Positions 25,208 through 26,007 of a stretch of DNA of 64,000 nt are shown here, piece after piece. Each line of letters opens with the position of its first letter. Within the stretch, counting starts at the first letter, position 1. The notes below the pieces were generated by a model, which was given only the letters and a program-made list of their open reading frames with translations, had not been told where the DNA came from and made no database searches. The stretch lies in the NCBI RefSeq assembly GCF_024223415.1, contig NZ_CP100500.1, one strand, 5' to 3'. This DNA is from Escherichia coli. GTDB lineage: Bacteria; Pseudomonadota; Gammaproteobacteria; Enterobacterales; Enterobacteriaceae. The position numbers were made by a program, and so were the translations under genes.

Positions 25208-25672
25208 TCAATGGGTTTCTTCTGTCTCTCGAGTGAGGGTTTCCCAGTCGGCAGGAGGATGTCCTCTTTTTAACATTTTGCTGAATACGGTATAGGCATC
25301 TGTTTTTTTACCGTAGGTGCGCAGCGTGTTTTCATCGTTCATCCATCCCAGAATGATGACTTTCTCTTTTTCACTATAACGAAAGAAGAGACGATAACGA
25401 CCAGCACCAAATTTTACCCGTGACCAGTCTTTATTTTTCCCAGAGCCTAACGACTTGCCATGACGGAATGCCGGTGATGATGGATTGACCGTGATATGCT
25501 CCTCAATCACTTTATGGACTACCGCCAATAACTTTGTGGCGGCTTTTCTCTGATAATTTTCAGGATCTTTTCCCTTTAATGTCTCGACTTCGGCAACTAA
25601 AGCGTCGTAGGTTTCCTGAAAACAGGGATGAGCATATAGCGCCCAACCATTAACCCTTTGTGGAAAATCCAT
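25208..25672 (-). CDS. yhaV: Type II toxin YhaV (ribosome-dependent mRNA interferase)
   Basis: 154-aa ORF; immediately follows prlF. Confidence 0.9.
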   Translation of the reverse strand: MDFPQRVNGWALYAHPCFQETYDALVAEVETLKGKDPENYQRKAATKLLAVVHKVIEEHITVNPSSPAFRHGKSLGSGKNKDWSRVKFGAGRYRLFFRYSEKEKVIILGWMNDENTLRTYGKKTDAYTVFSKMLKRGHPPADWETLTRETEETH

Positions 25673-26007
25673 TATTCGTCGTCGCCAATCTCATCATCAA
25701 TGTTGACGTCCATGCCAGCGACAAGTTTCTTTCCTTGTTGAATGTTGAATGGACGAGTTTTTTGCGGGTTGTTCTGGATATCTGCATCCAGAAAACGCAA
25801 AAATGCATTCATAGTATGATCCTCCTGTTCATCTCCCAGTCGGCACATAAATACTTGCCCACCAGGCAGAATTTCGTAATGAATGCTGTCCTGGCCTGGC
25901 TTCAGTTTTAAAGCCTCACGCACTGGCGCGGGGATAGTTGTTTGTCCGCGTATCGTGACCTTTGATTCAGTGGTCAGTACAGCGTGAGAGCGAGCATTAG
26001 CGGGCAT
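25672..26007 (-). CDS. prlF: Antitoxin PrlF (SohA), AbrB/SpoVT-type
   Basis: 111-aa ORF with acidic C-terminus; stop overlaps yhaV start by 1 nt (coordinates 25672). Confidence 0.9.
   Translation of the reverse strand: MPANARSHAVLTTESKVTIRGQTTIPAPVREALKLKPGQDSIHYEILPGGQVFMCRLGDEQEDHTMNAFLRFLDADIQNNPQKTRPFNIQQGKKLVAGMDVNIDDEIGDDE

What the first reader, a model, noticed from the sequence alone, without database searches (positions are those of the whole stretch)
25208..26007. prlF-yhaV type II toxin-antitoxin module with overlapping stop/start
The antitoxin stop and toxin start overlap by 1 nt (shared coordinate 25672), typical translational coupling. The pair sits between the aga and gar clusters as in other E. 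coli. It is the only defence- or addiction-type module I can identify in the window.
Basis: partly seen in the sequence, partly recalled or inferred. Interest (0 to 1): 0.2.

Follow-up and report, generated by a model that had tools for sequence, protein, structure and literature searches.

The report
Known E. coli PrlF-YhaV toxin-antitoxin pair
This is the well-studied PrlF-YhaV toxin-antitoxin gene pair of Escherichia coli, with proteins identical to the laboratory strain K-12 and in its usual chromosomal place, so it is correctly identified but ordinary.

Summary
The observation and the interpretation both hold. Two minus-strand ORFs lie exactly as stated: prlF at 25672-26007 (111 aa) and yhaV at 25208-25672 (154 aa). 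They meet in the sequence TAATG, so the prlF stop and the yhaV start share base 25672. Both proteins are 100% identical to K-12 MG1655 PrlF (b3129) and YhaV (b3130), and 997 of 1002 bases of the locus match K-12. Both pass Pfam (PF15937, PF11663), and PrlF passes the NCBIfam PrlF equivalog model. The pair sits between garD and agaR, as in K-12 and in about 95% of 5,426 complete E. coli genomes.

A confident AlphaFold model of YhaV finds RelE, HigB and ParE-type toxins in the PDB. A sigma-70-like promoter carries a perfect palindrome, TAATGCAaaTGCATTA, over its -35 box. The same palindrome occurs upstream of divergent PrlF-YhaV modules in Yersinia, Erwinia and Kosakonia, so it is the likely operator.

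A PADLOC scan of 81 ORFs, an Rfam scan and the annotation of a near-identical genome showed no other toxin-antitoxin or defence module in the window. The single PADLOC hit is TdcF, a housekeeping enzyme.

Verdict: already known, low interest.

The parts
25672..26007 (-). prlF (sohA): antitoxin and autorepressor, 111 aa. It has an N-terminal AbrB/MazE-like DNA-binding region and an acidic C-terminal tail (…NIDDEIGDDE).
   Evidence: ORF. 100% identical to K-12 b3129. PF15937 at 6e-42, with a sub-threshold PF04014 MazE hit. NCBIfam NF007429 equivalog at 1.4e-50 and TIGR01439 AbrB at 2.5e-6. RefSeq annotation.
25208..25672 (-). yhaV: toxin, 154 aa, a RelE/ParE-superfamily ribosome-dependent mRNA endonuclease.
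   Evidence: ORF. 100% identical to K-12 b3130. PF11663 at 8e-54. AF2 model with pLDDT 91.9, whose top ~44 Foldseek PDB hits are all RelE, HigB, YoeB or ParE toxins. Invariant R85, K87, R92, R94, R98, R118, Y120, K123 in 38 homologues.
25670..25674 (-). TAATG junction: the prlF stop TAA (25674-25672) and the yhaV start ATG (25672-25670) share base 25672.
   Evidence: Read directly from the sequence. yhaV lacks a good Shine-Dalgarno sequence (-2.8 kcal/mol), which fits termination-reinitiation coupling.
26017..26021 (-). prlF Shine-Dalgarno sequence, AAGGA, ending 9 nt before the ATG.
   Evidence: Duplex with the 16S 3' end is -5.3 kcal/mol.
26044..26072 (-). Sigma-70-like promoter of the prlF-yhaV operon: -35 TTTGCA (26072-26067), 17-nt spacer, -10 TATAAT (26049-26044).
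   Evidence: Consensus scan, 10 of 12 matches. Identical in K-12. The -10 TATAAT is conserved at the same distance from the palindrome in the Yersinia and Erwinia modules.
26064..26079 (.). Candidate operator: a perfect palindrome TAATGCA-aa-TGCATTA that overlaps the -35 hexamer.
   Evidence: Inverted repeat I1. AATGCANNTGCATT has one perfect match in the 64-kb window (expected 0.39 at up to 1 mismatch). It has exactly one match in each enterobacterial PrlF-YhaV locus fetched, always 65-74 nt upstream of prlF. Kosakonia carries a symmetric change, CAATGCATTTGCATTG. The literature reports that the PrlF-YhaV complex binds a palindrome in the prlF promoter (PMC7781912).
26108..26133 (-). Intrinsic terminator of the upstream gene garD (10-bp stem, then a T-run). 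It marks the upstream boundary of the prlF-yhaV transcription unit.
   Evidence: Terminator scan and inverted repeat I1.
25161..25195 (.). GC-rich hairpin (GCCCGC…GCGGGC) in the 54-bp spacer between the convergent yhaV and agaR genes. It is a possible shared terminator, but the evidence is weak.
   Evidence: RNA fold of -20 kcal/mol, but z is only -1.5 and no clear U-tract follows. The consensus terminator scan did not report it.

Best explanation
The region is the chromosomal prlF-yhaV type II toxin-antitoxin operon of Escherichia coli, intact and with both proteins identical to the K-12 copy.

Shown here: the gene identities, the operon anatomy, the RelE-type fold of the toxin, and a conserved promoter palindrome.

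Taken from the literature on the identical K-12 proteins: a single transcript starts at a sigma-70 promoter just downstream of the garD terminator. PrlF is translated first from a good ribosome-binding site. YhaV has a poor site of its own and starts at the TAATG junction, so it is probably translated mainly by ribosomes that have just finished prlF. That would keep toxin below antitoxin. PrlF dimers bind YhaV to form PrlF2-YhaV4 complexes, which neutralise the toxin. These complexes also bind cooperatively to a palindrome in the prlF promoter and repress the operon. Free YhaV is a RelE-superfamily endoribonuclease that cleaves mRNA on the translating ribosome and stops growth.

Inferred here: the palindrome is TAATGCAaaTGCATTA at 26064-26079, over the -35 box. 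Toxin would be freed when the antitoxin is lost faster than it is made.
For: - Coordinates and the TAATG overlap.
- 100% protein identity to K-12 b3129 and b3130; 997 of 1002 nt identical, including the whole promoter region.
- Pfam PF15937 at 6e-42 and PF11663 at 8e-54; NCBIfam PrlF equivalog at 1.4e-50.
- The same annotation and the same garD-prlF-yhaV-agaR synteny in K-12, SCU-316 and NCTC10444.
- At least 80% of the 800-bp pair is present in 5136 of 5426 complete E. coli genomes.
- YhaV AF2 model has pLDDT 91.9 and pTM 0.88. Its best PDB matches are PfiT, E. coli RelE (4fxh, 4fxe, and 4v7j/4v7k on the ribosome), HigB2, M. tuberculosis RelE, YoeB and ParE.
- Basic residues are invariant in 38 homologues.
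- Promoter 10/12. The palindrome is unique in the window and conserved upstream of modules in unrelated contexts whose proteins are 47-65% identical to the window's.
- PrlF lies directly upstream of YhaV in all four divergent loci examined.
- Weak SD for yhaV against a good SD for prlF.
- Literature: heterohexamer, palindrome binding and ribosome-dependent cleavage (PMC7781912); single transcript with higher antitoxin synthesis (PMC5535158); PF11663 placed in the RelE/ParE BECR-fold superfamily, ribosome-dependent, antitoxin-toxin gene order (PMC11980606).
Against: Nothing found here contradicts the identification. The limits are these.

- No experiment was done on this copy.
- The primary paper (Schmidt et al. 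2007, PMC2699681) is not held, so I could not confirm that the palindrome I mark is the one they footprinted.
- The literature disagrees on whether YhaV needs the ribosome. PMC5408214 reports ribosome-independent cleavage in vitro; PMC7781912 and PMC11980606 report ribosome-dependent cleavage.
- The protease that degrades PrlF is listed as unknown (PMC4963847).
- No solved structure related to either protein was found by sequence.
- The PrlF model was too poor to use (pLDDT 59.8).
- Translational coupling is inferred from the anatomy only.
Confidence: 0.94

Rival explanations
1. The chromosomal copy is a domesticated regulatory pair rather than an addiction module. On this view PrlF is mainly a transcription factor and a modulator of Lon activity, YhaV acts chiefly as its co-repressor, and toxin release is rare or irrelevant. 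The biochemistry would be the same; only the biological role differs.
For: The pair sits at one fixed chromosomal site in about 95% of complete E. coli genomes, at 97.6% DNA identity or more in every full-length copy sampled. It is not flanked by mobile-element genes. The literature links prlF1 alleles and PrlF overproduction to Lon-dependent suppression of export and envelope defects (PMC7781912; PMC5408214; PMC4963847).
Against: The toxin ORF is fully intact, with all family-invariant residues. The same module type occurs on 328 plasmids, 175 of them conjugative, and inside a prophage, as selfish or defence cassettes do. At least one strain has lost the pair by a simple deletion, so it is dispensable.
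Confidence: 0.2
2. The pair acts as an abortive-infection anti-phage defence. Phage shut-off of host transcription would deplete PrlF and release YhaV to cut mRNA on the ribosome.
For: RelE/ParE-superfamily toxins are discussed as defence toxins (PMC11980606). A homologous PrlF-YhaV module (toxin 62% and antitoxin 58% identical to the window's) in Yersinia mollaretii lies inside a prophage, right after the holin-lysozyme-DUF2570-LysC lysis genes and before a KilA-N gene. That is a typical position for prophage-borne defence cargo.
Against: Neither protein hits any of the 5,027 PADLOC defence models. The E. coli copy is not in a defence island or prophage; it lies between sugar-catabolism operons. 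None of the papers read here reports phage defence by PrlF-YhaV.
Confidence: 0.08
3. The two ORFs are a decayed or non-functional remnant that only looks like a toxin-antitoxin pair.
For: None found. Decayed copies do exist in other strains: HH97 keeps only the first 96 nt of prlF.
Against: Both ORFs are full length and 100% identical to the experimentally characterised K-12 proteins. All four coding differences from K-12 are synonymous. The promoter, operator, SD and junction are identical to K-12.
Confidence: 0.01

Closest known systems
E. coli K-12 PrlF (SohA, b3129) / YhaV (b3130) type II toxin-antitoxin system (Schmidt et al. 2007, J Mol Biol 372:894; Choi et al. 2017, FEBS Lett 591:1853)
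   Same: Both proteins are 100% identical. The promoter, operator palindrome, ribosome-binding site and TAATG junction are identical, and the pair has the same neighbours, garD and agaR.
   Different: There are five single-base differences in 1002 nt: four synonymous changes in the coding regions and one in the yhaV-agaR spacer. Unlike K-12, the surrounding strain carries a complete aga cluster.
RelBE, HigBA and YefM-YoeB: the other RelE/ParE-superfamily ribosome-dependent mRNA interferase modules
   Same: The toxin fold is shared: Foldseek probability is about 1.0 to E. coli RelE, HigB2, M. tuberculosis RelE and YoeB, with TM 0.6-0.79 normalised to the target. These systems also share a bicistronic autoregulated operon and mRNA cleavage at the ribosomal A site (PMC11980606).
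   Different: There is no detectable sequence similarity, even with a 38-sequence profile. YhaV is about 60 residues longer, with an N-terminal pair of long helices (H16-35 and H44-60). Its antitoxin is of the AbrB/MazE type, not RelB, HigA or YefM/Phd. The reported complex is PrlF2-YhaV4 (PMC7781912).
MazE and AbrB/SpoVT swapped-hairpin DNA-binding antitoxins
   Same: Residues about 14-39 of PrlF match the MazE_antitoxin and AbrB models (E 9.6e-4 and 2.5e-6). The literature places PrlF in the AbrB superfamily (PMC5408214).
   Different: Both hits fall just below the curated cut-offs. The partner toxin is RelE-like, not MazF-like, which is a case of toxin and antitoxin families being shuffled between systems (PMC5408214).
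Plasmid- and prophage-borne YhaV-family modules (Salmonella, Pantoea, the Roseobacter group, a Yersinia mollaretii prophage)
   Same: They share the two Pfam families, the antitoxin-first order and tight gene spacing. In enterobacteria they also share the AATGCAnnTGCATT promoter palindrome.
   Different: Toxin identity to the window's YhaV ranges from 66% for the closest plasmid copy down to about 50%, and is below 60% for 321 of the 328 plasmid records. They sit in mobile contexts. The gene junction varies from -4 to +7 nt. The Paracoccus copy has a different upstream palindrome.

Membership tests
PrlF-YhaV type II toxin-antitoxin system (E. coli K-12 b3129/b3130) | Sequence identity of both proteins to the reference pair | tested here: met
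   111/111 and 154/154 residues identical to MG1655.
PrlF-YhaV type II toxin-antitoxin system (E. coli K-12 b3129/b3130) | Family models PF15937 (PrlF_antitoxin) and PF11663 (Toxin_YhaV) matched above the curated cut-offs | tested here: met
   142.2 bits against a cut-off of 32, and 181.9 bits against 35. NCBIfam NF007429 equivalog scores 170 bits against 125. No NCBIfam model matched YhaV.
PrlF-YhaV type II toxin-antitoxin system (E. coli K-12 b3129/b3130) | Antitoxin-first bicistronic operon with tightly juxtaposed genes | tested here: met
   TAATG 1-nt overlap. The same order, with spacing of -4 to +7 nt, occurs in four divergent loci.
PrlF-YhaV type II toxin-antitoxin system (E. coli K-12 b3129/b3130) | Chromosomal position between garD and agaR | tested here: met
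   PMC7232551 reports the same conserved context in K-12, HS, CFT073 and NRG857c.
PrlF-YhaV type II toxin-antitoxin system (E. coli K-12 b3129/b3130) | Palindromic operator in the prlF promoter, bound by the complex | tested here: met
   The sequence feature is present and conserved: TAATGCAaaTGCATTA at 26064-26079 over the -35 box. Binding itself cannot be tested with these tools, and the published footprint could not be read.
PrlF-YhaV type II toxin-antitoxin system (E. coli K-12 b3129/b3130) | Toxin arrests growth and the antitoxin neutralises it by direct binding | not testable with these tools
   Reported for the identical K-12 proteins (PMC7781912; PMC5408214).
RelE/ParE (BECR-fold) toxin superfamily | RelE-type alpha/beta fold of the toxin | tested here: met
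   AF2 model with pLDDT 91.9. The top 44 Foldseek PDB hits are all RelE, HigB, YoeB or ParE-type toxins, with best E 1.2e-4, probability 1.0 and TM up to 0.79 on the target.
RelE/ParE (BECR-fold) toxin superfamily | Conserved basic and aromatic active-site residues | tested here: inconclusive
   R85, K87, R92, R94, R98, R118, Y120 and K123 are invariant in 38 homologues. The literature says two conserved arginines are essential (PMC5408214), but I could not obtain their positions and did not superpose them on RelE.
RelE/ParE (BECR-fold) toxin superfamily | Ribosome-dependent mRNA cleavage | not testable with these tools
   Literature only, and partly conflicting: PMC7781912 and PMC11980606 report ribosome dependence, PMC5408214 reports ribosome-independent cleavage in vitro.
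AbrB/MazE/SpoVT swapped-hairpin antitoxins | N-terminal swapped-hairpin DNA-binding domain in PrlF | tested here: inconclusive
   The matches are below the curated cut-offs but specific: PF04014 at 19.5 bits against 24.7, and TIGR01439 at 27.1 bits against 28.3. The AF2 model from 5 sequences was poor (pLDDT 59.8) and was not used for a fold search.
Known anti-phage defence systems (PADLOC-DB 2.0) | A match of either protein to a defence-system model | tested here: not met
   No family matched PrlF or YhaV at E up to 0.01.

The most novel reading that the evidence does not exclude
The most novel reading still open is that the PrlF-YhaV module is a self-contained, horizontally moving cassette that carries its own promoter and AATGCAnnTGCATT operator. 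It is found in a Yersinia prophage next to the lysis genes and on many plasmids. On this reading the near-universal E. coli chromosomal copy acts as a phage-triggered abortive-infection system, not merely as a stress or addiction module. Nothing here tests that function. The operator itself may already have been mapped in Schmidt et al. 2007, which I could not read.
Probability: 0.07. Interest if true: 0.4.

Novelty: already known. Interest (0 to 1): 0.06.

Why it matters
It matters little beyond correct annotation. The locus is a textbook chromosomal type II toxin-antitoxin system, and here both proteins are identical to the K-12 reference.

The check does give three small extras:
- Computational confirmation, from a confident model, that YhaV has the RelE fold. 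No related solved structure was found by sequence.
- A 16-bp palindrome over the -35 box that travels with divergent enterobacterial PrlF-YhaV modules. This gives a precise operator candidate for mutagenesis.
- Evidence that tight gene juxtaposition is the conserved feature, not the exact 1-nt overlap.

Tried and rejected
1. The primary paper (Schmidt et al. 2007, PMC2699681) is not held, so the published operator could not be compared with mine.

2. Sequence searches of the PDB found no true relatives. I tried both single proteins and a 38-sequence YhaV profile. The only hits were chance ones to ThreeFoil, gasdermin and PPR proteins. The RelE relation appears only at the fold level.

3. PrlF structure prediction from a 5-sequence alignment gave pLDDT 59.8 and pTM 0.30. 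That is too poor to search with, so I did not run a fold search on it.

4. A PADLOC hit to PD-T4-2_B (2e-30) looked like a second defence gene in the window.
   - I first tested yhaB, yhaC and tdcR. They had no real hits.
   - A concatenated-ORF scan then traced the hit to TdcF.
   - Only the RidA-like C-terminal half of the model matches, and no DUF262 partner is present. I rejected it as a defence system.

5. The weak WYL, CasR and Csa3 hits of AgaR and ExuR are generic helix-turn-helix matches and were rejected.

6. An Rfam scan for antisense or small-RNA antitoxins found only RNase P RNA.

7. The hairpin between yhaV and agaR is not significantly more stable than shuffled sequence (z = -1.5). 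I list it only as a possible terminator.

8. A second, 1-mismatch match to the operator motif lies at 39314-39327, inside tdcD. It is within chance expectation.

9. Some fetched loci (L002-L004, L006, L008-L012) never appeared in the Python sandbox. I therefore established window-to-genome collinearity with search_dna_similar and DNA alignment instead.

Full report
**Observation.** The window has two minus-strand ORFs at exactly the stated coordinates: 25672-26007 (ATG start, 111 aa) and 25208-25672 (ATG start, 154 aa). On the coding strand the junction reads GACGACGAA-TAATG-GATTTT. The upstream stop TAA (25674-25672) and the downstream start ATG (25672-25670) share base 25672.

**Identity.**
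- Pfam places the upstream protein in PF15937 PrlF_antitoxin (E 6e-42) and the downstream one in PF11663 Toxin_YhaV (E 8e-54). Both are far above the curated cut-offs.
- NCBIfam's PrlF equivalog model matches at 1.4e-50.
- Compared with E. coli K-12 MG1655 (NC_000913.3, prlF b3129 and yhaV b3130), both proteins are 100% identical.
- The 1002-bp stretch from the garD stop to the agaR stop differs at five bases. Four are synonymous and one lies in the yhaV-agaR spacer.
- The window as a whole is E. coli chromosome. It is collinear with, and essentially identical to, strain NCTC10444 (NZ_LR134092.1, 628797-693368) and a few other strains. RefSeq annotates yhaV and prlF in NCTC10444 at the same locus coordinates as in the window.
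A published comparison reports the same conserved context in K-12, HS, CFT073 and NRG857c (PMC7232551).

**Distribution.**
- The 800-bp pair is present at 80% coverage or more in 5136 of 5426 complete E. coli genomes, almost always once and on the chromosome. 265 genomes have no match.
- One genome without an intact pair, strain HH97, shows a deletion scar. It keeps the promoter and the first 96 nt of prlF, fused to a slightly truncated agaR.
- YhaV-family genes also occur on 328 plasmids, mostly below 60% identity to the window's protein. The hosts include the Roseobacter group, Pantoea, Acetobacter, Citrobacter and Salmonella, and 175 of the plasmids are predicted conjugative. There is also one phage record.

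**Anatomy of the operon.**
- A strong intrinsic terminator for garD lies at 26133-26108.
- It is followed by a sigma-70-like promoter: -35 TTTGCA at 26072-26067, a 17-nt spacer, and -10 TATAAT at 26049-26044, matching 10 of 12 consensus positions.
- A perfect palindrome, TAATGCA-aa-TGCATTA (26064-26079), overlaps the -35 hexamer.
- prlF has a well-placed AAGGA Shine-Dalgarno sequence (-5.3 kcal/mol to the 16S 3' end). The best pairing upstream of yhaV is only -2.8 kcal/mol and lies too far from the ATG.
- This fits translation of yhaV mainly by ribosomes terminating at the prlF stop. It also fits published RNA-seq and ribosome-profiling analysis, which shows one transcript (antitoxin/toxin RNA ratio 1.11) but higher antitoxin synthesis (PMC5535158).
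- A GC-rich hairpin at 25161-25195 lies between the convergent yhaV and agaR genes. It is not significantly more stable than shuffled sequence and lacks a U-tract, so I mark it only as a possible terminator.

**Relatives elsewhere.**
- A homologue search returned 281 YhaV-family proteins. An alignment of 38 of them, 49-79% identical to the query, shows invariant W10, R85, K87, R92, R94, R98, N112, D113, R118, Y120, K123, D125 and Y127.
- I fetched four divergent loci: Yersinia mollaretii, Erwinia aphidicola, Kosakonia sacchari and Paracoccus cavernae. In each, a 110-112 aa PF15937 gene sits directly upstream of the toxin gene.
- The junctions in those loci are ATGA (4-nt overlap) and gaps of 7, 5 and 2 nt. 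Tight juxtaposition is conserved; the 1-nt overlap is not.
- The three enterobacterial loci have entirely different neighbours. The Yersinia copy lies inside a prophage, between the lysis genes and a KilA-N gene.
- Each of the three carries exactly one copy of AATGCAnnTGCATT, 65-74 nt upstream of prlF and at a fixed distance from a -10 box.
- In Yersinia the motif extends to a perfect 22-bp palindrome. In Kosakonia both outer positions changed symmetrically (CAATGCATTTGCATTG).
- In the 64-kb window the motif has one perfect match, against 0.39 expected at up to one mismatch.
- Together with the published statement that PrlF-YhaV binds a palindrome in the prlF promoter (PMC7781912), this makes 26064-26079 the likely operator. 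I could not read the primary paper to confirm this. The Paracoccus module has a different palindrome.

**Fold.**
- Neither protein has a solved relative detectable by sequence, even with the YhaV profile.
- An AlphaFold2 model of YhaV built on the 38-sequence alignment is confident (pLDDT 91.9, pTM 0.88).
- Its best 44 Foldseek matches in the PDB are all RelE/ParE-superfamily toxins: PfiT, E. coli RelE free, with RelB and on the 70S ribosome, HigB2, M. tuberculosis RelE1 and RelE2, YoeB and ParE. The best E-value is 1.2e-4, probability is about 1.0, and TM-scores reach 0.79 on the target length.
- YhaV is about 60 residues longer than RelE, with two long N-terminal helices.
- This agrees with the Pfam-based classification of PF11663 in the BECR-fold RelE/ParE superfamily (PMC11980606).
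- The N-terminus of PrlF gives specific but sub-threshold matches to the MazE and AbrB models. A PrlF model from only five sequences was poor (pLDDT 59.8) and was not used.

**Mechanism.** The steps below come from the literature on the identical K-12 proteins, except where marked.
- PrlF and YhaV form PrlF2-YhaV4 complexes. These dimerise cooperatively on the promoter palindrome and repress the operon (PMC7781912).
- Free YhaV binds the ribosome and cleaves mRNA in a frame-dependent way (PMC7781912; PMC11980606). An older in vitro report describes ribosome-independent cleavage of mRNA and rRNA (PMC5408214).
- PrlF overproduction, or the prlF1 allele, raises Lon-dependent activities. The protease that degrades PrlF is listed as unknown (PMC4963847).
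- Inferred here: the location of the operator, translational coupling at TAATG, and toxin release when antitoxin supply falls.

**The 'only defence or addiction module' claim.**
- I scanned 81 non-overlapping ORFs of 40 aa or more against PADLOC. The single strong hit (PD-T4-2_B, 2e-30) traces to TdcF, the RidA-family deaminase of the tdc operon. It matches only the C-terminal half of the model, and there is no DUF262 partner. It is not a defence system.
- AgaR and ExuR give weak, generic helix-turn-helix hits.
- Rfam finds only RNase P RNA, so no known type I antitoxin RNAs are present.
- RefSeq annotation of the near-identical genome lists no other toxin-antitoxin pair.
- The claim stands within these limits. 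PADLOC has no model that recognises PrlF or YhaV either.

**Verdict.** The finding is correct and ordinary. It is an already known system, with both proteins identical to the reference. Interest is low.

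Noticed in passing
window 56500/56501 (junction ambiguous within 56501-56509), inside exuT (56318-57046, minus strand): exuT, the hexuronate transporter gene, carries a 570-bp in-frame deletion (190 codons; 432 aa reduced to 242 aa) relative to NCTC10444, SCU-316 and NCTC9112. In the intact gene, 9-bp direct repeats (CAGCCATGC) flank the deleted segment, which suggests slippage or microhomology. None of the 5,426 complete E. coli genomes has this junction as one contiguous piece. It is therefore private to this strain, or an assembly artefact.
   Followed up: yes
window 42673-43062 (+), tdcF: TdcF, a RidA/YjgF enamine/imine deaminase, matches the PADLOC model PD-T4-2_B at 2e-30. Only profile positions 168-292 of 294 are matched. 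This means the second gene of the PD-T4-2 anti-phage system appears to carry a RidA-like C-terminal domain. No DUF262 partner is in the window, so it is not a defence locus.
   Followed up: yes
L007 1-4480 (Yersinia mollaretii CABHYJ010000072.1, 622511-626990): A PrlF-YhaV module (antitoxin 58% and toxin 62% identical to the window's proteins, 4-nt ATGA overlap) sits inside a prophage. It lies immediately after the holin, lysozyme, DUF2570 and LysC lysis genes and before a KilA-N gene. It has a perfect 22-bp version of the promoter palindrome.
   Followed up: partly
L011 3469-3564 (E. coli HH97, NZ_CP116409.1): This strain has lost yhaV and most of prlF by a deletion. The deletion leaves the promoter, the operator and the first 96 nt of prlF fused next to an agaR that has lost its last codon(s). 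I examined only this one of the roughly 290 genomes without an intact pair.
   Followed up: partly
window 33181-34368 (-) yhaC, 34390-34929 (-) yhaB, 35185-35403 (-) tdcR: yhaC (395 aa) and yhaB are intact here and in NCTC10444, but are frameshifted pseudogenes in the closely related strain SCU-316. Neither protein matches any Pfam or PADLOC family, so their function is unknown.
   Followed up: partly
window 19079-22308 (-), agaA(nagA)-agaF-agaE-agaW: The N-acetylgalactosamine (aga) cluster is complete in this strain. K-12 has the known deletion that leaves agaW and agaA as pseudogenes and lacks agaE and agaF.
   Followed up: no
literature, not the window: The review PMC7781912 labels PDB 2KHE as the 'YhaV monomer'. 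In the PDB, 2KHE is RelE from Thermus thermophilus (rank 16). No chain related in sequence to YhaV or PrlF was found in the PDB copy.
   Followed up: yes
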